Shown one piece after another: positions 32,795 to 46,034 of a stretch of 64,000 nucleotides of DNA; the stretch's first letter is position 1; each line of letters begins with the position of its first letter. The notes below the pieces were generated by a model. That model was not told where the DNA came from, made no database searches, and was given only the letters and a program-made list of their open reading frames with translations. The position numbers and the translations under genes were made by a program. Source of the stretch: the human T2T-CHM13v2.0 reference genome, Homo sapiens. The stretch is taken from the NCBI RefSeq assembly GCF_009914755.1, contig NC_060938.1; one strand, written 5' to 3'.

Positions 32795-33825
32795 AAGAAA
32801 TTTAAGAGGACGCCAGGTTTGGGTGACTTGAACAATCAGGTTATGATCAATAAGAATGAAAAAAAAAAAAGAGGATCAAGAGATCAGTGATCCAAAAACC
32901 TGACCAGGTCACAAATTACAGGTTTGTTAATTGTATTATTACAATACATTAAATATTTTAATCACTATATAATGAACATATTTTCAATAGAAAATTGTAT
33001 TTGTCCACTTAATCCAAAGAATATGTTTGTTATAGAAAACTGAATTTGCTCACGTAAACTGCAATGAACTAACTCACAAGTCTCATTTAGTTTCCCCTGA
33101 GGAACAGAAAATTTCAGATTCCCTTGGTTTAGCTTTTTCCTTGAGGATTTTTGAAATAAAGGCTACTTCTAGCTGCTTCAAACCTGCTACACCCAGTGTA
33201 AAAGCACTTTCTTCCACATCCTGGAAGCCCCATTTAAATACAATGCTGAGCCGATGGACCATAAATGCAACCCAATGTGGTAATTCCTAAATTCCTATTT
33301 AACACACTTGATCTCCAACATTTTAGTATGAATAACAATTAGATCCTGTGAGACGGGGTGTTTATAGTATAAAAACAGGATGAAACTCAGAAAGAAATAA
33401 AGCCCCAGAAAATCATCAGTCTATGTAGCTTAGTTATAGTAGCTGTACTTCATTAAATTCAGGTTCATTTTAGTTCATATACGTTAGTATTCTGCAAAGT
33501 TTATTGCCATCTTCTCTAGGCATTCATTTTCTCAGATAGGATAGTTTTGCTTTTTTTCTTTCCAAATCTTACATTAGTCCCTGTCTCTATAATTACTATT
33601 CTCTAGATTTATAATTGTTCCACTATGTCTTTCTTGAGTTGCAACAACCAGCTATGCACACAACCTTCCAGGTGTGGATTCACTATACTTCTATTAAAAG
33701 GTAGGATTTTATTTCCCCTGTTTTCTATTCTATGCCAGTTATGTGAAGCATTTTTATTGTTTTGGGGGCTCCAAGACAAATTAGATTCTCAAGGAAACTC
33801 TATTATTATTAATGTCATCAGCTAA

Positions 33826-34196
33826 TGTCTTAGTCTGTTTTAGCTGCTACAACAAAATCAGAGGCTGGGTGGCTTATATACAACAGAAACTTATTTCCTG
33901 CAGTTCTGGAGGCTGGGAAGTCCAAAATCAAGGTGCTGGCAGATTCAGTGTCTCTGAAATGGGCCCATTTCCTGGTTCATAAGTGGTGCCTTCTCACTCA
34001 TCCTCACAAGGTGGAAAGAGCAAGGCAGCTCTCTGGAGTCTCCTTTATAAGAGCACTAATCCCATTCTTGGGTGAAGAGCACTCATGATTTATTCACCTC
34101 CCAAAGGCTCCACTTCCTAATACTATCGCCTTTGGGTTAGGATTTCAACATACGATTTGGGGAGGGGGAGGAAATATGAACATTCAGACCATAGCA
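33826..34196 (-). mobile_element. MaLR solo LTR (MLT1A/MST-like)
   Basis: tgtcttagtctgttt...cagttctggaggctgggaagtccaa...cattcagaccatagca. Confidence 0.88.
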
Positions 34197-35939
34197 GCAT
34201 ACTAAAATTTTTCCTGTCTATATCCTGTTTCAAGTTATTATAAAAAATATAAAAGCAGTCTGCTCCCATATACAAAGGACCAAGCAATAAGACCAAAGCA
34301 GCTAAAAACATAAAACTTAAACTAAAAAGAAACTCAGGAACCACTACCCTTATACTTCCCAACCAATTAGTTTCAAATTTGAATTTGTGACCCTAATTAT
34401 GTATATAAAAGAGACAAAATTGGAAACTAAACATTGTTTTGGCTTGCCAGGTGCCAAGTGAATAATGTTCAAAAAAGGTTTGCCTTGCCTTTTATTAACT
34501 ACACCTAGGGGAAAAAAACAAAAACAAAAACAAAAACAAACTGTGCACTGATTACTAAGAGCTAGTATGAGTTCTTTGAGAAAGTATGCTGCTAGGAAGT
34601 GACTGAATAAGAATTACATGAAACTAATCTGATTTTTAATTTTCTCACCCTGCCCCACCCCCAGCTATATAATTACTGGCCTGGAAAAGTCAAAAAGGTG
34701 CTGTAAACTGAGTGTATCTATTTTCGGCCACAGACAAAGAAGATTGAATTAACCACACTCCTCCATTCCTAGCATAAGCCTTGTGTCTTGTTTATTGTTG
34801 TTTTATTTATTTTCTCTCATCCCCATACCTCTCTCCCAATCTCCTCAACCCCATAGCACCTATTTTAATTATTTGAATATATATCTTTTGTGTCTGTGTT
34901 CTTTCCAAATGGATATTTGTTTGCACATAATTATGCACACACATGCACACACACATATATAAAACTCTGTAACTTTCATTACACAGTATGTCTGTAAGAT
35001 TCATCCATGTTGCCATGCAGATAGCATACACCTAATATATTACTTTTAGCTGCTGTTAAAGCAGCATCAGATATTTCCCTAAGATATTTGGCAAAATATC
35101 TCATGTTATCTTTAAGAATAAGATGGATAGACTGAAACTGTGGCAGCAGAGTACAGGGAAATTCAAAGTTGGAAAACAATATTAAAAGTGTGTTGCTTTG
35201 ACAGATATCCCAATTATGCAAACTATATGAATGTATTGAATTATTACTTGCATCTCAAAAATATGTATGTCTATTATGTATCAATAAAAAAAGTAAGTGT
35301 GTTACTTAATGTAACAATGTCAACCTCTCTAAAGGAAGTTACCAAACCTGTCCTTCGGCCACATTTCAATACTCAATAGCTACACATCATTAATGGTCAC
35401 CATATTATACAGCATAGATGTAACATTTCCATCATCATGGAAAATCCTACTGAAACACTGTTCTGGAGCTATGCCCAAATTTCCTCATCCACATTGTTAC
35501 CAGCTAGTCAGGAAAGGAGTTATTGGTAATTCTGGAAGAAATAACTAATAAGATGAATTTAAATGTCAAGATTCAGAAAGATCACAATAGGTGATAATGT
35601 TAGCCATACACTGAAAAGCTTAAATTTAATAACAGTAACTATAAACCCCTGCACTTAGATTCAAAGTTCAAAACACAGTTGCTCAAGTATAACATTCAAG
35701 GAAAAACCTACCCTGTTAGAAGTTCAAATTTAAAAATCCTAGCGGGTAGAAATGGGGTGGTGCTGTTAGATAATCATAAGCTTACTCTGGGCCAACAGTG
35801 TGCCAAAGTGGCTAAATGTAATTCAAACATAGCCTACTAAATGGGAGGACAGTGTGAAATAGTGCCTATGTAGGTCCATCTCTATGCAGAGAATCATGTT
35901 CATCTCTGACTGTAATGCTTTGAGAAAGAGCTATCCAAG

Positions 35940-36280
35940 TGTATTAGTCCATTTTCACGCTACCTGAGACTGGGAAATTTACAAAAGAAAGAGGTTTAAG
36001 GGGACTTACAGTTCCACGTGGCTGGGGAGGCTTCACAATCATGGTGGAAGGCAAGGAGGAGCAAGTCACATCTTACATGGATGAGAGCAGGAAAAAGAGA
36101 GAGTTGTACAAGGGAACTCCTCTTTTTAAAACCATCAGATCTCGTGAGACTTATTCATTATCATGAGAACAGCAGGGGAAAGATTTGCCTCCATGATTTA
36201 ATTACCTCACACTTGGTCCCTCCCACAACAGGTGGGAATTCAAGATGAGATTTGGGTGGGGACACAGCCAAACTATATCA
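35940..36280 (-). mobile_element. THE1 (C/D-like) solo LTR
   Basis: tgtattagtcc...aactatatca termini. Exact 5-bp TSD CCAAG (35935-35939 / 36281-36285). Confidence 0.93.
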
Positions 36281-36371
36281 CCAAGATTATGCCCAGAGAT
36301 GGGAAATCATGAGGGTAAAGCATGTCATACCAAGTGGAGGTGAGGTCTTTAAATATTTTAAGATCTGTTTA

Positions 36372-36751
<380 letters not shown>

Positions 36752-37097
36752 TTACAGGAAAGTGGATTTCAGACTCAACAAGGAAGATATTTTTCTAACA
36801 AGTAGAACTGCCCCAAAATGAAATGGGTGTCTTATATAGAAAAAAGCCTATAGTCTTTGCACCTGTTCATGCAAACGTTGAATACATTATTTTTCAGAAC
36901 ATTGTTCTTAAGAATAATTATTGTATGGAATGAAGATTGAGACAATCTCTAAACTTTTCCAAGAGATTATAATATAAACATGTATCTATCTAAACCCCAA
37001 GTAATCTTGTATAATTTTAGTGATCTGCCTTCAGAAATCTATAGGACCACATTCTTTACCTGAGTTACTATGTTTAACACCTACTTTGGATTCATAG

Positions 37098-37236
37098 TGG
37101 TCAAGCAGCTAGCAGAACACTCTTTAGTTTTGCTGGGTCATTTCTAAAGAAAAGGTAGATATTCGCACCTGTCAATCAGCTTCAGTAAGGAGCCAAAAGT
37201 GAAATCAGTTGTCAGTAACCCTTACAAAGCCACCTG
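37098..37236 (+). pseudogene. Candidate exon (VKQLAEHSLVLLGHF*RKGRYSHLSISFSKEPKVKSVVSNPYKAT)
   Basis: ttcatag| ... TG|gtattg, one stop in 45 codons. Confidence 0.3.
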
Positions 37237-39119
37237 GTATTGTTCTCTTGCCTTTCTTTTTTCTGTTTTCTGTTCATTCCCTTATTTTTGTTTCCATACT
37301 GCCTTATCTTTCTTTTCCTTTTCAAATTTCACTATACCTCTTTTAGTCTTTCCCTTGTCTTTCTGATTTCTAGACTTTTCTTATTTTTAGCTCCTATTCT
37401 TCATCCAAATACATGCCTTTCTGAAGACCCACCACAATTATTTTAAGTTAACTCTCATCAACCAGAGATTTCCCTTTACAGAGAGAATCATTGTTTTCTG
37501 TTTTTACCTGAAGCATGCTAGATCAATATAACAGGAACTATACAAAAGAATACTACTTTAATTCATTTTATGAGCAGTATATCAAGAGTAGATACAGGTT
37601 TTGTGGTACCTAAATCTTATATAATCTAGAGGTACTATCTTTAATTAAAATAGCAAACACTTAGATATGAAAGCAAGTATCAGTTTGTAATGAGTGCAAT
37701 CAAAACAAAGCAAATTGAAAAATTCTTAAAGCTGATAAATGCTATAAATATCTTAATACCACAAAAATTACTATTTTGTGAATGAACTGTCTGATACACT
37801 TCTGTTATTTTTTCCCATGTTTTTTGTCTATTGTTTGAATCCCTCCTATGGCAATGATTTTGCAATATTCTCCACAGAAAGAATAACAGTACTGCTATAA
37901 ATTTGTCCCTGACAAATAGGAATATGAGATGAGTCCTATCTCATGCAATTCCTATCAATAAAGAAAAGACTTAGTGGTGCATTTATTATCAACTCTGCTC
38001 TATTATCAAGTATATGCCTGACAGGATAGAAATTCTACTTTAACTGGAGTCAGTGAGAATGAAATCCTACAATTTTCCATGTATAATGATTGGAAAAATT
38101 TTCCACAGGCTAGCTCTGGTTTAATGCATTTCTAAAGTGTTTTTCTCCTCCGCTACCCACATATTACTGGTGGCAGTTTCATAAGATACATTGATATCAT
38201 GATAAGACTCTAGCCCTGAAACATTACACTGTAACATGGAGTGAGTTGGCACAGTAGGTAGTAGAAGTATTCCTGACAGCCATCCCTACACCAGAATGGC
38301 TAGAAGTGTAACTATACCTGGAGTGGTTGCAGACCGTATAAATGAATCTCCTTACTCTAAGCTCAATGAATTCTCAGGCACTCTTACAAATAAAAATGCA
38401 CTGGCTTCTAAATTAAGATGTTTGCCCTGATACATTGGGTAATTTCCTGGTTGTTCTAGTCTAGGGTATATTTTGAATATCAAATAACATGTTTAGGATA
38501 TTTTCCCTTTTGAAAATGACAAAAATCACAGAGACTCTTATCAAAAAGCTTTCCTTTTATTCGTGCTCATGTTACTTGCTGCAATTGTGCATCAGGTGGG
38601 AAGTAGAACATGGCATGGGTGCCAAAGGGTGCAGTAGTTAGACTCTTCAAGTGACTCCAACACAAATGAGATCATGCTTGAATCTCCTGATCAAATTTTA
38701 AATAACAGATCTGTAGCCAGTTAAAGGCATATGAGAACTATCAACACAAAAGCACGTATCCTCAATCTTCACTGCACGGAAAACCCCCTGGGAGACTTCA
38801 GCAATGTCAATGCTTTGACTAGTCTCAAATCAATTAAATCTGAATCTGTGAGCATAGGACCCAGGCACCAGTGTTTGCATTTTGTTTTGTTTGTTTTTAA
38901 TATTCCTTTTTGTAGCCAGGGTTGAGAACCACCCCCTGGTTTCAGCTTTGAAAACTAGTAAGTCAATGCTGTCAGACGACCCAGTGCCCAGTTTTACTTC
39001 AACTGACCCTTGGGGTGACATTTCTCTTGTACAATTGTATAGCACCAAATATTTTTTACTCTCTGGCCCGCCATGACAATCCCAAGCAGAAAAAGAATGC
39101 AACAGGTTTAAAGAGAAAG

Positions 39120-39377
39120 GCCTCTGATTTTGTTGTAGCAGCTAAAACAGACTAAGACATTAGCTGATGACATTAATAATAATAGAGTTTCCTTGAGAAT
39201 CTAATTTGTCTTGGAGCCCCCAAAACAATAAAAATGCTTCACATAACTGGCATAGAATAGAAAACAGGGGAAATAAAATCCTACCTTTTCTCTATTATTT
39301 CAAGAAATTATTGGACACATCAAAGCCCATTATAAACCATGTATGGTCCATTGATGCCACCATTAGAACTTCTGAGG
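39120..39377 (-). repeat. Templated insertion: inverted copies of 33696-33865 and 44863-44954
   Basis: Base-by-base identity with both sources. They share TTTT at 39286-39289. Confidence 0.97.
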
Positions 39378-40421
39378 ATTTGAATGTGGCAGGAAATTGT
39401 ACTGCCCCCATGATTTACTGAGAATAGTTTACCAAGAGCAACACACTACTGAGAATCCACCCAACTTCTCAAAGAGCAAACTATTTTCCATTCTGAGGAA
39501 GATTTTATTTTTTAACAGTGTTGTGATGGCAGCAAAATTGTGGAAAAACCATTAGTCTCCAATAACTGTTGGTAACAGATTCTACCTACATTCCCCCTTT
39601 CCTTTGAAAATCCTGCTATCAGGTAATAATTAGCAATTAGCGAACACTCAACTCTACATGACTAAGAAGAGCATTTCTCAATCTGTGTTCTTGGGAACAC
39701 TAGTTTCCTGCAATGTTAATATGTGTTATATAAAATGCTGCATATTCTGCCTTCTTTGAGAGTCAACAGACACATTTGAACATTAAAGGCTCTTCGAATT
39801 CCACATAAATAAATCTGCTTAACATTACTTAACCAAATGTTTCCCAAATTTATGTAACCATGGAATCCCCACCTCAAACACACATAGACACATATACATT
39901 TCTAATATGTGGGGGTTTTAGTGATTTGGGGATTTTGTTTTGGTTTTTAGAAGAACACCTATAAAACTAGTAGTTTTCTGTGAATCATGGTTTGGAAAAC
40001 AACTTCTCCTGAGGAAATCAAAACCAAAGTTAAACAATAATGCTTCAGGCCTGGAATTTCAAGCTTGTGGGGACAGTAGGCATTCTCATAGCTGCTAAAA
40101 TCATATCGGGTGGGCAGTTATTTGTCACCATCCAGCATAAAGACCCTTATCAAGCCTATTGCTATGTCATTAATTCTAAAAAAGATATGTCCAGTAATTC
40201 AGTCCCTCTGATTTCTCCGGTTTTGGGAATGTCTGCTTCAATGTGGCACACAAGCTATAGCAGATTGGGCTCATTTTGAGCCACAGGCAAAATATTCTAA
40301 GTTCAAGTATTTACCGAATTTTACTTGCCAGTTTTCATGGCATGTGTGATATTTTTAGCTGACTAGTGATAGTCTTTAAATCCAACAACAGTACACATTT
40401 TATATGAAAAATGCAGGATAT

Positions 40422-40880
40422 TGACAAAAACTGCCTCCGTGACCAAACTTGAATCAGACTCCTTTGAATCCTCTCCTCTGCTAGGCCTCAACCTTTGCAC
40501 TTCTATGTCCATCTTTGTATCACCCAGTTTCAGCAAAAATGCTGCCAAGTCAGTTTAGTGAGAATCTGTGCCCTCAATATCTGATCACCTGGATATCTGA
40601 GCAAATTCCTCATACCCAAACCATCCCCCAAGTGATATCAGATCACTCTGGCCTGCCTTCAGGTCCATTGGTTTAGCCAGAATCCCCCCTTACCTCTGAT
40701 GCTTCCTCTTAGTAATTTTCCATCCACTGAGCCCTATCCAACTGTAAGTCCCCACTTGTCCGTGCTGTGTTCAGAATTGAGTCCGGTTCTATACTGAGGT
40801 CTCTTTTCTCCTACTGCAATCATTCCCAAATAAAATCTGTTCTTACCACTTTACTGTCTAACTCTGTTTTTTCTTTAACA
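40422..40880 (+). mobile_element. ERV1 solo LTR (MER31-like)
   Basis: tgacaaaaact...ttctttaaca termini, TSD ATAT, AATAAA ~40828. Confidence 0.8.
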
Positions 40881-41090
40881 ATATGCAAGCTTGCAATAAT
40901 AAATTTACAGCAAAAATAAACACTTTCATCTGCTTAAGAGGGCCTTATTAAAAGTACTTCGATGTATTGAAAAATTAGACTGACAGCTTTGAAACACAAA
41001 GTCCTCTGTTTATCCATAAAACATATATATGATTGCCACCAGCAATTCTAAGCTTCCTTTATGAGTTTACCTCTGTCTGCCCCTCTAAAG

Positions 41091-41279
41091 AGTGAGAAGA
41101 GGGTTCAGATTCCAGGCCCATTCAATTCTTGGCTCCTCTGCAAAGACTGCCAATTAGAGTATTTTGTGATATGGACATCTGTCCACTGGACTGAGACCAG
41201 CTCATTTCACAAAGCAGTTGTCAAGTGGTATCAACTTTCTGTGACAACCTGTGTTGGATTCAAACCCGTGCCCTTTGAG
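41091..41279 (+). pseudogene. Candidate exon, 189 nt, phase 0-0, fully open (SEKRVQIPGPFNSWLLCKDCQLEYFVIW...FKPVPFE)
   Basis: ctctgtctgcccctctaaag| and GAG|gttaca. 63 codons with no stop. Confidence 0.45.
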
Positions 41280-44251
41280 GTTACATGGCTTCCTCTTCTA
41301 TCACTAAATCTTTTAAATGCCCAGAAGTTAGACACACTAATTTTCAAAACTAGCTAATTATAAAATCATAAAGTCATCTTTATTTCCCTTAATTCATGGA
41401 AATTTTTCTGATGCTTGCATTTATTGTCAAAAAATGATCCTCTATGTACACTTTTATTCTTGGAAATCTGGGCATTTTTCCAGTCACTTTGAAAGAAACG
41501 TATGTATTTAACATTATTTAAATGGGTGCTTTTTGGGCACCTACTACCTATTAGGCAGTGTGGAAATGCTACCAGTTTCCATTATTTTTTTTCTGAATTT
41601 ATCTGCTGAATAGCTGAACAATTTTTCTCTCCACTATACCTAGTTTTTCTTTTTCTTTTTCTGTTTTTAAACTCAGTACAGTACAAGGTAAGAAGAGCAA
41701 AAAGTTTTATAAGGGGAAAGGTAATGTTTGAAGTTACATTAGTTTGAATGTAGTTTAGTTTCTCAACTATATATAATTACTTTGAAGGGGAAAAATCATA
41801 AAAATAGCTTTATTGTTACATTTTTGCCAGTGGGTGTGTGAAGTAATTTAACTTACAGGTAATGATTATGTAATTGTATTGATACAGGGCATACAGCCTA
41901 CCAAGCTTAGTGAATCATCCAGACTGACAAGAGGAGGTGTAAAAATTCTGCCTGCTTCTTTTCTGTCTCACATCCCTGCCTTTACAAAGGAGAGAAGTCT
42001 TTCTCACAAGTTGGGGAGGGTGGTGGTAAGTGAGGCATCAAAGCTCCAAGATCACGGATATAAATGCATCAAGACAATGTGTCAATTCCTTGTGGTATAA
42101 TTTTAAAAATTAATTGGATGGTGGTGAAGCTACCCAGCCCAAATGATGACTGTGCCATAAGAGATACAATGCAAATGGCTGACAGCAGCTACTTACCATT
42201 CAGAAATGAAGCTCTAAACTTTCACAAAGCTCCATTAAGATACAAATTAATTTCACTGAACTGTTCCATGTTGTTTGTCCCTGTTTTACCTCTGTAGGAT
42301 ACATTTGTTGCATAAACCCAACCATTTATTTGGACAGGAAGAAACAACACAAAATATAAAGGTCTAGTTATAGCATGGTATGCTGAGGTAATTAAAATTT
42401 CTATTTTTGCAGCCAATGACCTCTGTAGCCATAGCTGATTAAAAGTACAAAAATTTTAGATCTGGAGAATATTTGTGCCAAGGACAATGCTTGACCAAAT
42501 ATAATTAACTGAATTTAGATAAATTCTCAATCTGGCTTTCTTTAACTTGAATAGAAAAATCACACACTTCGTTGAACATGAATGGATTTGAAAATGAACA
42601 TTTGGATTATATGCGAGGATATTTTCCCAGAATAATAGACCCAAGATTTTTTGATGTGCTGCATAGAAGTTCTTTGTTGACCCAAAGAATATATCAGCCT
42701 TCTGTTTTTACTCTCTAGTTCTATTTGCTGATTTTTGTTAATATTTATAATAACAGAAATAGTAGGTGAGGGAAAGCAGGAGAATAACAGATCCATTTAA
42801 ATCTTTACTCTTTGTTTTTTCAGTGCTTCTTGTTCTTTTTCTTGGGGATAATTAGAGATAAATGGTATGGTATTATATTTGCTTGGATAGCAATACAAAA
42901 ATGCCTATTTCCATCATTTTCAGTAATAGACTTTCAAGCTATATTTTCCTCAAACTTGATCCTCATTATTCCAGTAATATTTAAGCTATTAATTTCTCCA
43001 GAGAGTGCTTTTTGAAAATGGTAAATTATAAGACAAATCCCAAAATTACATTTTCTTTAATTTACAGTATTGTTCAAGCTCTACTGTTAGCATAAATGAA
43101 TAGTCTGAACTGCAGTCTGAAATAAAGCCTTGAGCATTAAACAGTTGGCTTGGAAACAGAAACATTAAGAATATGATTGAAATTTTTTTACAGAAGATGA
43201 AATAACAGCATGCGCAAAAGCTCATTTATGATAATTCTAACATTTCTGCTACAGTTACAGAAAAGTAACAACATTTACCAAAAAAAGAAAGAAAAGAAAG
43301 AAAGAAAGGTGAAGGGTTTCACTTTCTAATCAACTGCAATGATATCAATTTTGCCCTTACTGAAAAGTGATTTTCACAGTTATAGAAATTTAATTTTTTT
43401 TCTGAGTTTCAAATTTGCCTTTTGGAAGGAACACAAAACAGGGCTTTTCAAAACAAAAGTCAATTGAAGCAAAAGTTTTTGTACTTGATGTAGGCATGTT
43501 GTAAACACATAACAATAGCAATAAATACAGTCAAACAGCATGATACTCAGAAAGACAATGAAGTCTATAAAGGTCTACAAACATCATATTTATTTTATTA
43601 TAAAAAGGCATTAATTATGCTAATATGTGATGAAATCATATGAAATTCAAGGTATATTTAAAATCATTTGTTTAATATGTTTTATTTCATACTAGTTATG
43701 TCTGTTCCTTTATTTTTGTTTTGCCTTTTTTACGGGTGGGATTTGAAAAAGGAAGATAGAGAATACTTTTTATAAAATTATAAAGAAGACCAATCTTCTT
43801 GAAAATATTGATAATCTGATAAATTGCCAACAATAACCATCTGAGGCCTAAGCAAGCGTTTGTGATTCTTCAAACGAAAAGCTTCAAATTCACTCCAACT
43901 AAGAAAATCACTTCCTCCATCTAGTGGTGACTGATTGTAATGCTACCGAATTCTAGAACACTTTTCAACTTTTTTAAAATGTCGTTTTGTTTTTATACCT
44001 ATGCTTGGGTCAGATAATTGTATTTATGTGGGAAATTAGGCTAAATTGTGTTAGTTTTCTTAAACATTTTACTACAATCTGAAGAAACACGGCATTACTA
44101 TCTGCAATATTTTATCTCTGAGCCAAAATGCATAAAACATAGCCCTTACCATTGTAGGGCTTACAATTGAGCTAGGGAGACTTGACATATATGTATGAAA
44201 GGATAAACTAAAAAGAACACACATGAACTCTCAAATGGGTGATAAAGGCAA

Positions 44252-44520
44252 TGTCAGGGCTCAGAACGCAATGCTCTAAAACATGGCATCTTGGCGTACT
44301 GAGTATTTTCAGCTGAAGGAAATTGAGAAAACCACAAAGCAGAAGGTCTCTCTCACCTTCTCTCTTGAAGGCCTTCATGTGACAGGTGTCCTGGAGGGGA
44401 GAAATGTTTCACAGAGATGCTAAAAAGAATCTGAACAAGCAGGCCTTGCTAAGTTTCCTCCCAACTTCCCCCTCCCCGCCCCAGTTTATTACCAATAGAT
44501 CATGACTTTTGATGGTCATC
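44252..44520 (+). mobile_element. ERV1 LTR fragment (MER34 group)
   Basis: tgtcagggctcagaac...tattttcagctgaaggaaattgagaa and aatctgaacaagcaggccttgctaagttt. Confidence 0.6.
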
Positions 44521-46034
44521 ATTGCTTGAAAAAGATTTGGCAGAATATATGGAACTGAAATGGCCTTTATTAAAGAGATAGAAGGAATTACATAACCAGG
44601 GAAGACTAAGAAAGGCATTTCAGACAAAAGGAACAGTTACAAACTGTTACAAGAGACAAGATAGATGCCTCCAATTCTGAAATCTTTGGAAGACAATGGG
44701 TAAGTCGTGTTCTGCAAAAATGGGTCTATGTGTTTGGTCAAGAGGAGTGAGAATGGAGTAGAAAGTAAAGTCGTTATAGCTATTGTAGATATAATACAGA
44801 GATTTTGTAGAGGGTCTTGAATGTCAAGATAAAAATGCTGGACTATATATTATTAGAATGAACCTCAGAAGTTCTAATGGTGGCATCAATGGACCATACA
44901 TGGTTTATAATGGGCTTTGATGTGTCCAATAATTTCTTGAAATAATAGAGAAAAATATCTTTACATGTGCACATATGAATTTCTCTAGAAAGAATGTCCA
45001 TAATTGTCATCAGATTCTCAATGGGGATCATTGCTCTGTTAATAGGTTTTGAATAGCAAACTGACATATTGAGTTTTGGAAAGATTCGTCTGACATTGAT
45101 GTGTAGGATAGTTTGATATGGGCAGATAACTTATTCTTCATATTTAGGCTGATCCATCCCCCCAGCACAATATGCTGCCCTGGTTACTTGGTACTTTACT
45201 TCTCCCCTCTCTGGGCACTCAGTATTTCTTTATAAAATATTTTAAGTCTTTAACTAATTCTATGATAATCTATAGATCCATATACACGATCTCATCAAAA
45301 ATAGCCTTAAGCATTCATAAAATTTAGATTTGGTGAGTACCGTGTATTTTTCTCAACACTGAGGTGCTTTCTGTCTGCACTTATATTTATATTTGGGATT
45401 CAGGCCTTTAATGATAGCAGTCATCATAAAAGTTTCCATTTGTTGAAGACTATATGCTAGGCACAAAATTAAGTATATGTGTTCAACAAATACTTACTGA
45501 GTGCTTTTTATGTGCCAGGTAGGTCATAAATCTTACAATAATCTAATGAGTTATATTCCCAATATATCCAATATGAGTTACAGTCCCCTGACTTTGTACA
45601 TGAGGAACCTGAAGTTTAGGAGTTAGGCAACATTCACATCATCACCTTTTTCATAGCTAGTACAGCTTTGATTTCAACCTAGATATCTTTGATTCAATAA
45701 GCTGTGTCAAAGGTGGAACTAAAAAAGTATTTGGTCAGGATGCAAGATTTCTGAATGCCTGTATCTTGTCCTACCATTACCTTACCTTTCCTTCCTTTCC
45801 CTTTCCTCCATCCAACCAAGCTTTATCCTCCCTAGCCCCTTTCCATAACAAAAATGCCCAAGGGATACAAGCACAGGGCCCAAAGCCAGGTAAATGTACT
45901 TTTTTACTCTGATGCTTTTGTCCAAAGGTCCAGTGTCTGAACTAATCAGGAATCAGTGGCCAAGGCCCTTTTCATAGCTTGGTAGTCCCCAGACTGCTTT
46001 CCTAATAAACTATCTGAAAGTTGTTAACTGGTAT

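What the first reader, a model, noticed from the sequence alone, without database searches (positions are those of the whole stretch)
39120..39377. 258-bp insertion that is an inverted head-to-tail junction of the surrounding 11.26-kb segment
Seen: 39120-39289 is the exact reverse complement of 33696-33865 (170 bp, including the edge of a MaLR LTR). 39286-39377 is the exact reverse complement of 44863-44954 (92 bp). The two overlap by a 4-bp TTTT microhomology. Read on the minus strand, the insert is 44863->44954 joined to 33696->33865, the junction that a circle or tandem duplication of 33696-44954 would carry. There is no poly(A), and AGG ends both the left flank and the insert. Inference: a very recent multi-template-switch event (FoSTeS/MMBIR or Pol theta-type templated insertion) or reinsertion of an eccDNA junction fragment. 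Zero mismatches suggest it is human-specific or polymorphic.
Basis: partly seen in the sequence, partly recalled or inferred. Interest (0 to 1): 0.88.

Follow-up and report, generated by a model that had tools for sequence, protein, structure and literature searches.

The report
Inverted insert resembling intron lariat junction
A 258-base insert in a human chr14 intron joins two nearby pieces in circular order, and the joint matches that intron's splicing loop (lariat), so it may be a DNA copy of a lariat RNA used to patch a break, though DNA copying errors remain a serious alternative.

Summary
39120-39289 is the perfect reverse complement of 33696-33865, and 39286-39377 of 44863-44954, with a 4-nt overlap. 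In the whole CHM13 assembly the insert matches in full only itself, and each half only its local source. The 33.7-kb site is the original, because a dispersed repeat runs on past 33865 there but stops at the insert edge.

New here: read in the sense of its sources, the inner junction has lariat-read anatomy. The downstream piece starts at intron +1 of the annotated LOC105370432 exon-2 donor (33700|33701). The upstream piece ends one base before A44955. That A lies at -34 from a seven-pyrimidine-plus-AG acceptor-like site with no AG in between. The one junction base differs from A44955, as reverse transcriptases commonly misread a branch. Only 5 of 1262 AAAA sites in the window have this geometry.

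My best reading (about 0.5) is a cDNA copied across the branch of this intron's lariat and used to patch a break in the same intron. The main rival (about 0.36) is DNA-level template switching through the 4-nt microhomology. It needs no mismatch but leaves both splice-site coincidences to chance.

Zero mismatches do not show that the insert is human-specific: P(0 differences | 6.5 Myr) is 0.19-0.26.

The parts
39120..39377 (-). The insert (258 bp, or 257 if G39120 belongs to the flank). Its minus strand has the sense of the + strand sources. GC is 35% and there are no CpGs.
39120..39284 (-). Copy of 33701-33865, the first 165 nt of the intron that follows LOC105370432 exon 2. Intron +1 (G33701) corresponds to 39284.
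   Evidence: exon end 33700 comes from the hub's RefSeq table
39285..39285 (-). The junction base, G in sense. It is either branch A44955 misread by a reverse transcriptase, or the last exon base G33700 copied during a microhomology template switch. This is the one ambiguous nucleotide that separates the two main readings.
39286..39377 (-). Copy of 44863-44954, the 92 nt directly upstream of the candidate branch A44955. 39286-39289 (AAAA in sense) also matches 33696-33699.
33696..33865 (+). Source A: the last 5 nt of exon 2 (AAAAG) plus 165 nt of intron. The donor reads AAG|GTAGGA at 33700|33701. This site is the original copy, because the dispersed repeat running from 33795/33823 to 34152 continues about 290 bp past 33865.
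44863..44954 (+). Source B, unique sequence.
44955..44955 (+). Candidate branchpoint adenosine at -34 from the acceptor-like site. It lies inside the AG-free zone 44951-44986 but lacks the usual U at -2. The best consensus branch site in the zone is TTTAC at A44963 (-26).
44980..44988 (+). Acceptor-like site TTTCTCTAG: seven pyrimidines, then the first AG downstream of 44955. Its pyrimidine run is in the top 1.6% of the 4162 AGs in the window. The two annotated acceptors rank at 2.4% and 4.4%. It is not annotated as a splice site.
44989..45332 (+). Possible unannotated exon ending at a strong donor-like G|GTGAGT (GT at 45333). This is weak support: with 25 GTRAGT sites per 64 kb, one within about 350 nt is not unusual.
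39118..39120 (+). AGG at the end of the left flank, repeated at 39375-39377. It is a 3-nt microhomology or mini target duplication. The target is not a TTTT/A LINE-1 nick site.

Best explanation
The insert is a DNA copy (cDNA) of the branch region of an intron lariat. The proposed chain is inferred, not shown. A + strand transcript used the annotated exon-2 donor of LOC105370432 (33700|33701) with an unannotated acceptor at 44988, branching at or next to A44955. This released an 11.26-kb lariat. A double-strand break occurred at 39119/39120, inside the DNA of that same intron. The sense lariat can pair by full homology with the resected minus-strand 3' tail of the right end, which would hold it at the break. 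The + strand 3' end of the left end (ending AGG) has the same sense as the RNA, so it cannot pair by homology. Instead it primed by 1-2 nt at 33865. A polymerase with reverse-transcriptase activity copied 165 nt back to intron +1. It crossed the 2'-5' branch, putting C opposite the branch A (G in sense), and copied 92 nt upstream of the branch. The product was joined to the right end with 0-3 nt of microhomology. Extending a + strand end on a sense RNA necessarily gives an inverted insert, as observed. The enzyme is unknown; candidates from the literature are Pol zeta, Pol theta and LINE-1 ORF2p acting without its endonuclease. The insert probably has no function.
For: Shown:
- The circular-permuted order, with both pieces in one orientation and sense matching the + strand gene.
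- The downstream piece begins at intron +1 of one of only two annotated + strand donors in the 64 kb. The chance of a random breakpoint landing within +-1 nt is 9.4e-5.
- This test was made after the lariat idea was formed. The upstream piece ends one base before an A that lies 33 nt before the G of a seven-pyrimidine AG (position -34) with no AG in between. This holds for 0.32% of all window positions, for 5 of 1262 AAAA sites in the window, and for 2 of 359 AAAA sites within +-10 kb. Those 2 are the observed run itself.
- A44955 lies inside the AG-free zone. It also lies within the 19-37 nt range that holds 90% of human branchpoints (Mercer 2015, passages).
- The only base not matching source B is at the inferred branch position. 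70.4% of lariat reads carry such a mismatch. Entry from the 2' arm gives single mismatches in 67% of M-MLV cDNAs. Pineda & Bradley use exactly this pattern as the criterion for a lariat read (passages).
- There is no target duplication of 5 bp or more, no poly(A) and no TTTT/A site. The size lies within 73-414 bp. These are the features of class 2 RNA-derived templated insertions (review parts 1-2).
- Breaks inside introns of transcribed human genes are repaired from local splicing products in cis, leaving whole-intron deletions (Jalan 2025, passages).
- The lariat debranching enzyme DBR1 scored as a modulator of Pol theta end-joining outcomes.
Against: - The 5 nt before intron +1 in the insert (AAAA+G) equal the last 5 nt of exon 2. 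A plain template switch with 4-nt microhomology therefore explains every base with no mismatch. Under the lariat reading this identity is chance, about 0.27^4 x 1/3 = 2e-3 (composition). Taggart 2017 treats similarity to the 5'ss region as the mark of RT template-switch artefacts.
- A44955 is not the best branch site. It has no U at -2, and TTTAC at A44963 fits the consensus.
- The one example mismatch at a branch A that I saw in these passages is T, not G.
- The 44988 acceptor is unannotated. The annotated intron ends at 34664, and I had no RNA data.
- RNA-derived templated insertions described so far come from distant loci. The documented cis RNA repair is homology-guided and not inverted.
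- A random 258-nt cDNA from an 11.26-kb lariat would include the branch only about 2% of the time.
- No polymerase acting in break repair has been shown to cross a 2'-5' branch. I saw no paper on it.
- This is a single case.
Confidence: 0.5

Rival explanations
1. DNA-level serial template switching during replication or break repair: FoSTeS/MMBIR, or transcription-coupled, BIR-like templated insertion. A 3' end at 39120 copied the + strand at 33865->33696, switched through TTTT/AAAA microhomology to 44954->44863, and returned to 39378.
For: Every base is explained with no mismatch. There are 4 nt of microhomology at the inner junction, and 1 nt plus 0-3 nt at the outer ones. Both templates lie within 5.5 kb. 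Indel-seq finds templated insertions from transcribed donors enriched within 100 kb of a break, involving RNA-DNA hybrids. 59% of those have one blunt and one microhomology junction (abstract and sections 7 and 14). Copying a displaced + strand would give the inverted orientation.
Against: The inner junction would sit by chance within 1 nt of one of two annotated + donors (9.4e-5; at most about 3e-3 if all four breakpoints, all four annotated splice sites and +-5 nt are allowed). It would also sit by chance at one of the 5 of 1262 AAAA sites with branch/acceptor geometry. Circle order and shared orientation each have only about a 1 in 2 chance. This haplotype shows no accompanying duplication (0 direct repeats).
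Confidence: 0.36
2. Reverse transcription of unspliced pre-mRNA, not a lariat, with a microhomology template jump from exon-2 AAAA to the AAAA at 44951-44954, followed by capture at the break.
For: It shares the class 2 insertion features. RTs do jump between templates at short similarities (Taggart 2017).
Against: It carries the same two splice-site coincidences as the DNA rival. Nothing in this model makes the jump occur right at the exon-intron boundary.
Confidence: 0.05
3. A fragment spanning the junction of an 11.26-kb extrachromosomal circle, or of a since-lost tandem duplication of 33696-44954, was reinserted or copied into 39120.
For: The junction topology is that of a circle, and AAAA microhomology would suit circle closure.
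Against: The assembly holds no second copy of the segment and no other trace of the junction. The model needs circle formation followed by capture of only 258 bp, and it leaves the same splice-site coincidences to chance.
Confidence: 0.05
4. An assembly or consensus artefact in T2T-CHM13.
For: No call bears on this; I had no reads to check.
Against: From recall, this assembly was built from long accurate reads that would span all three copies. The insert has clean, precise junctions.
Confidence: 0.02

Closest known systems
circRNA-derived pseudogenes (Dong et al. 2016, Cell Res; part 1 of 2 of the text read)
   Same: A genomic copy that carries a non-colinear junction diagnostic of a circular RNA template. 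There is little or no poly(A), and the insertion mechanism is unknown.
   Different: Those junctions are exon-exon back-splice junctions, and the copies lie elsewhere in the genome. Here the junction is intron 5' end to branch region (a 2'-5' lariat), with no back-splice signals beside the fragment ends, and the copy lies inside its own intron.
Class 2 templated-sequence insertion polymorphisms (Onozawa & Aplan review, parts 1-2 read)
   Same: The insert is 258 bp, within the 73-414 bp range. It lacks a TSD of 5 bp or more, poly(A) and a TTTT/A site. Its junctions are of the end-joining type. The source is transcribed and intronic, and remains intact at its own site.
   Different: Those inserts are defined as coming from distant loci and are single colinear pieces. 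This one comes from 5.3-5.5 kb away and is circularly permuted.
Lariat reads in branchpoint mapping (Mercer 2015; Pineda & Bradley 2018; Taggart 2017; passages)
   Same: Inverted split alignment, a start at intron +1, an end in the branch window, and a single mismatch at the branch.
   Different: Those are cDNA reads made in a tube. This is germline genomic DNA.
[quoted passage not shown] 2025, passages)
   Same: A break inside an intron of a transcribed gene is repaired from a local product of splicing.
   Different: That repair uses spliced mRNA, is homology-guided and colinear, and deletes the intron. Here the other splicing product would be used, by microhomology, giving an inverted insertion.
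FoSTeS/MMBIR and transcription-coupled templated insertions (Indel-seq preprint: abstract and sections 7, 14. FoSTeS/MMBIR themselves are recalled.)
   Same: Several nearby templates, microhomology, and one blunt plus one microhomology junction.
   Different: These models make no prediction that breakpoints fall on a 5' splice site and a branch window.

Membership tests
Lariat branch-junction sequence (criteria used for lariat reads) | Inverted split alignment on one strand: the first part maps downstream of the second part. | tested here: met
   In sense orientation the insert reads 44863-44954 and then 33696/33701-33865.
Lariat branch-junction sequence (criteria used for lariat reads) | The second part starts at intron +1 of a real 5' splice site. 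| tested here: met
   G33701 follows annotated exon 2 (end 33700; AAG|GTAGGA; and the hub table). This holds if the one base before it is assigned to the branch. The transcript model is a predicted one.
Lariat branch-junction sequence (criteria used for lariat reads) | The first part ends at a branch nucleotide about 19-37 nt upstream of a used 3' splice site. | tested here: inconclusive
   The geometry is met: position -34, seven pyrimidines plus the first AG, inside the AG-free zone. Use of this acceptor is unannotated and could not be tested.
Lariat branch-junction sequence (criteria used for lariat reads) | A mismatch or small indel exactly at the branch nucleotide. | tested here: inconclusive
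   The insert has G where the source has A44955. The same G is also the last base of exon 2, so the mismatch is not unambiguous.
Lariat branch-junction sequence (criteria used for lariat reads) | Branch-site consensus: A with U at -2 (yUnAy). | tested here: not met
   A44955 has A at -2. The only yTnAy match in the zone is at A44963. Many mapped human branchpoints are non-consensus, so this lowers the claim but does not exclude it.
Class 2 templated-sequence insertion | No TSD of 5 bp or more, no poly(A), no TTTT/A target, and end-joining-type junctions. | tested here: met
   Only 3 nt (AGG) are shared, the longest A run is 5, and the target reads AAAGAGAAAG/ATTTGA.
Class 2 templated-sequence insertion | The template lies in a distant genomic region. 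| tested here: not met
   The templates lie 5254 and 5485 bp away, in the same intron.
LINE-1-mediated retrocopy (class 1 insertion, processed pseudogene) | TSD, 3' poly(A), and a TTTT/A nick site. | tested here: not met
circRNA-derived pseudogene | A non-colinear exon-exon junction at back-splice sites. | tested here: not met
   There is no GT after 44954 and no AG before 33696. Both fragments are intronic apart from 5 nt.
Pol theta templated insertion (TINS) | A short insert copied from sequence directly flanking the break. | tested here: not met
   The pieces are 170 and 92 nt, copied from 5.25 and 5.49 kb away. The definition is taken from passages; the typical sizes are recalled.
FoSTeS/MMBIR | Serial template switches, each with microhomology, between nearby templates. 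| tested here: inconclusive
   There are 4 nt at the inner junction. The outer junctions have 1 nt and 0-3 nt, and cannot be resolved without the empty allele. The templates are nearby. No linked copy-number change was seen.

The most novel reading that the evidence does not exclude
This is a germline fossil of a spliceosomal intron lariat. The excised lariat of a lncRNA intron stayed at its locus, was reverse-transcribed across its 2'-5' branch, and was used to patch a break in the very intron it came from. That would make lariats a new class of template for heritable insertions. It would be the insertion counterpart of whole-intron deletions, and such inserts would record ancient branchpoint use in DNA.
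Probability: 0.5. Interest if true: 0.85.

Novelty: new variant of a known kind. Interest (0 to 1): 0.7.

Why it matters
If the lariat reading is right, this is direct sequence evidence that the intron product of splicing can be copied into the human germline genome. So far only mRNA, circRNA and retroelement RNA are known to be copied this way. It would also show that this can happen in cis at a break in the transcribed gene. It gives a simple search image: a circularly permuted two-piece insert whose joint is intron +1 next to a branch window. That makes the question testable across T2T and pangenome assemblies. It would also tie the unexplained DBR1 hit in end-joining screens to a concrete substrate. 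If the DNA reading is right, this is an ordinary, probably neutral, two-template insertion. In four searches of the open-access library I found no description of a genomic insert carrying a spliceosomal lariat junction. The searches were 7 papers; 18 papers, 15 listed; 578 papers at 2 of 3 terms, 12 listed; 3 papers. Subscription journals are not covered.

Tried and rejected
- Insert as the ancestral source of the flanking copies: rejected. The repeat continues about 290 bp past 33865 in the source, while homology stops at 39127 in the insert.
- A paralogous 'empty site': none found. BLAST of 38400-40100 against the window gave only self and the two sources. The 1101-bp region against the whole assembly gave only those, the same four repeat hits, and one 72% hit of about 109 nt. 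The shared 13-mers near 5.9 kb were chance.
- Further templated pieces in the 200-bp flanks: none beyond chance 13-mers.
- LINE-1 target-primed insertion: rejected.
- circRNA back-splice junction: rejected, because there are no AG/GT signals beside the fragment ends.
- A lariat of the minus-strand gene G2E3-AS1: rejected. Read in that sense, the second fragment does not begin with GT.
- A candidate exon after 44988: a strong donor-like site at 45333 exists but is not statistically unusual.
- A hypothesis paper proposing lariat-Alu copies (PMC7905054, passages) gives no sequence evidence of this kind.
- Not done: I did not open the supplementary branchpoint tables of Mercer 2015, Pineda & Bradley 2018 or Taggart 2017. 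They may list branchpoints for this intron, but they use other assemblies' coordinates that I could not convert. I had no access to other human haplotypes, ape genomes, reads or RNA-seq.

Full report
**1. The observation**

The finding is exact. The repeat finder on 33000-45600 returned two inverted pairs and nothing else:
- 33696-33865 with 39120-39289 (170 nt, 100%);
- 39286-39377 with 44863-44954 (92 nt, 100%).

A script confirmed both identities. Identity ends abruptly at all four fragment ends. The arms overlap by four bases. On the minus strand the insert reads 44863->44954 and then 33696->33865, which is the order a circle of 33696-44954 would carry.

Against the whole 3.1-Gb assembly, the 258 bases match in full only themselves. 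Each half matches only its local source. The four remaining hits are 34-65-nt matches (80-97%) to a dispersed repeat at one end. The flanks of the insertion site are unique in the genome. There is no poly(A) and no LINE-1-type target. A 3-nt AGG is shared by the left flank (through 39120) and the insert end. Because G39120 also matches source A, the insert is 257 or 258 bp, and the outer junctions carry 1 nt and 0-3 nt of microhomology. Only an empty allele can settle this.

**2. Direction of copying**

The dispersed repeat that supplies the end of fragment A runs from about 33795/33823 to 34152 in the source, judged from four other genomic copies. In the insert, homology to those same copies stops at 39127, at the insert edge. 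The 33.7-kb site is therefore the original and 39120-39377 is the copy.

**3.

The annotation places exon 2 of the + strand lncRNA LOC105370432 at 33607-33700. All four of its splice sites have canonical signals. In the sense of its sources the inner junction reads (…AAAA)(G)(GTAGGA…). It has three parts:
- The downstream piece is the intron from its first base, G33701.
- The upstream piece is the 92 nt ending at 44954.
- One base, G, lies between them.

In the genome the base after 44954 is A44955. I formed the lariat idea from the donor and then looked downstream of 44955. The first AG downstream is at 44987-88, and seven pyrimidines precede it. That puts A44955 at -34, inside an AG-free zone running 44951-44986.

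Human branchpoints lie 19-37 nt upstream of the acceptor in 90% of cases (Mercer 2015, passages). The acceptor-like site has a pyrimidine run in the top 1.6% of the 4162 AGs in the window. It is at least as good on this measure as the two annotated acceptors, at 2.4% and 4.4%. Its overall pyrimidine content is only average.

The insert thus meets the operational definition of a lariat read: an inverted split alignment, a start at intron +1, an end in the branch window, and a single mismatch exactly at the branch (Pineda & Bradley 2018, passages). Such mismatches occur in 70.4% of lariat reads. They predominate when the enzyme enters from the 2' arm, which is the direction required here (67%, M-MLV RT).

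**4. How much is chance?**

- The window has two annotated + strand donors. A random breakpoint lands within +-1 nt of one with probability 9.4e-5. Allowing all four breakpoints, all four annotated splice sites and +-5 nt gives at most about 3e-3.
- The branch/acceptor geometry holds for 0.32% of all window positions.
- Under the fairer null, in which a template switch needs an AAAA landing site, it holds for 5 of 1262 such sites in the window. Within +-10 kb it holds for 2 of 359, and both of those are the observed run.
- Jointly this is about 1e-5 or less under any model that ignores splicing.

One coincidence counts against the lariat reading. The five bases before intron +1 in the insert (AAAA+G) equal the last five bases of exon 2. 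A DNA or pre-mRNA template switch through 4-nt microhomology therefore explains every base without a mismatch. Under the lariat reading that identity is chance, about 2e-3. Taggart 2017 uses such similarity to flag template-switch artefacts.

Other points against the lariat reading:
- A44955 lacks the U at -2, and A44963 (TTTAC, -26) is the better consensus site.
- The only branch-A mismatch example I saw was T, not G.
- The acceptor is unannotated.
- A random 258-nt cDNA from an 11.26-kb lariat would include the branch only about 2% of the time.

**5. Locality and orientation**

RNA-derived templated insertions described so far come from distant loci (Onozawa & Aplan review). An insert landing 5.3-5.5 kb from both of its templates is therefore the main prior against an RNA origin and for a DNA one. 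Two things soften this.
- Jalan et al. 2025 show that breaks inside introns of transcribed human genes are repaired in cis from a splicing product, leaving whole-intron deletions. This depends on Pol zeta and not on LINE-1 (passages).
- By inference, the lariat of this intron contains the sequence of the break site. It can pair by full homology with the resected minus-strand tail of the right end and so be held at the break. The left end's + strand tail has the same sense as the RNA. It can use the RNA only by microhomology, and doing so gives an inverted copy, as observed.

DBR1, the lariat debranching enzyme, scored as a modulator of Pol theta end-joining outcomes in a genome-wide screen. 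This is suggestive only.

**6. The DNA rival**

Transcription-coupled, BIR-like templated insertions have transcribed donors enriched within 100 kb of a break. Of these, 59% have one blunt and one microhomology junction (Indel-seq preprint, abstract and sections 7 and 14). That pattern matches the outer junctions and the locality here. FoSTeS/MMBIR (recalled) allows several nearby templates. A Pol theta-type insertion fits poorly, given the template distances and the size. An eccDNA or lost tandem-duplication junction has the right topology, but nothing else in the assembly supports it. All these readings leave the splice-site geometry to chance.

**7. Weighing**

The splice geometry favours the lariat by roughly 1e5 or more. 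The AAAAG identity favours a plain switch by about 500. Locality favours DNA by a factor I cannot pin down, somewhere between about 3 and a few thousand, depending on how strongly a lariat stays at its locus. The priors are unknown, because no such insert is in print in the four searches I made. Those were 7 papers; 18 papers, 15 listed; 578 papers at 2 of 3 terms, 12 listed; 3 papers. I therefore put:
- the lariat reading at about 0.5;
- DNA template switching at about 0.36;
- an RT jump on unspliced pre-mRNA at 0.05;
- an eccDNA or tandem-duplication junction at 0.05;
- an assembly artefact at 0.02.

**8. Age**

With 258 bp, no CpG and 0.4-0.5e-9 substitutions per site per year on two copies, zero differences have probability 0.19-0.26 at 6.5 Myr. 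The 95% upper bound on age is 11.6-14.5 Myr. The insert may be polymorphic, human-specific, or shared with African apes. The sequence alone cannot say which.

**9. Comparison with known kinds**

The closest known thing is the circRNA-derived pseudogene, where a non-colinear junction marks a circular RNA template (Dong 2016). The junction here is not a back-splice. It also shares most features of class 2 templated-sequence insertions, except the defining distant origin. I file it as a new variant of RNA-templated insertion if the lariat reading holds, and otherwise as an ordinary local templated insertion.

**10. Unexplained**

The insertion site lies 76.5 bp from the exact middle of the 11,001-bp insert-free segment (two-sided p = 0.014). 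Neither main reading predicts this. It was noticed post hoc and may be chance.

Noticed in passing
window 33696-44954, insertion site 39119/39120: The insertion site is almost exactly central in the segment bounded by the two inner breakpoints: 5424 bp to one side and 5577 bp to the other. It is 76.5 bp off centre in 11,001 bp, two-sided p = 0.014. Neither reading explains this.
   Followed up: partly
window 44980-45340: An acceptor-like TTTCTCTAG at 44980-44988 is followed 344 nt later by a strong donor-like G|GTGAGT (GT at 45333). This may be an unannotated exon of a + strand transcript. Another GGTGAGT lies at 44699.
   Followed up: partly
window 33795-34152: A dispersed repeat of about 330 bp has copies at 69-80% identity on four other chromosomes (L004-L007). 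The family name could not be checked here.
   Followed up: partly
window 39120-39377, minus strand: The insert places a sense-oriented copy of a donor (AAG|GTAGGA) and a branch-like region inside an intron of the minus-strand lncRNA G2E3-AS1. It could act there as a cryptic splice signal.
   Followed up: no
L009 (G000:C17:18732745-18732860) against window 38824-38932: A single 72%-identical match of about 109 nt on chromosome 17 to sequence roughly 200-300 bp left of the insertion site. It is probably an old repeat fragment and does not span the site.
   Followed up: no
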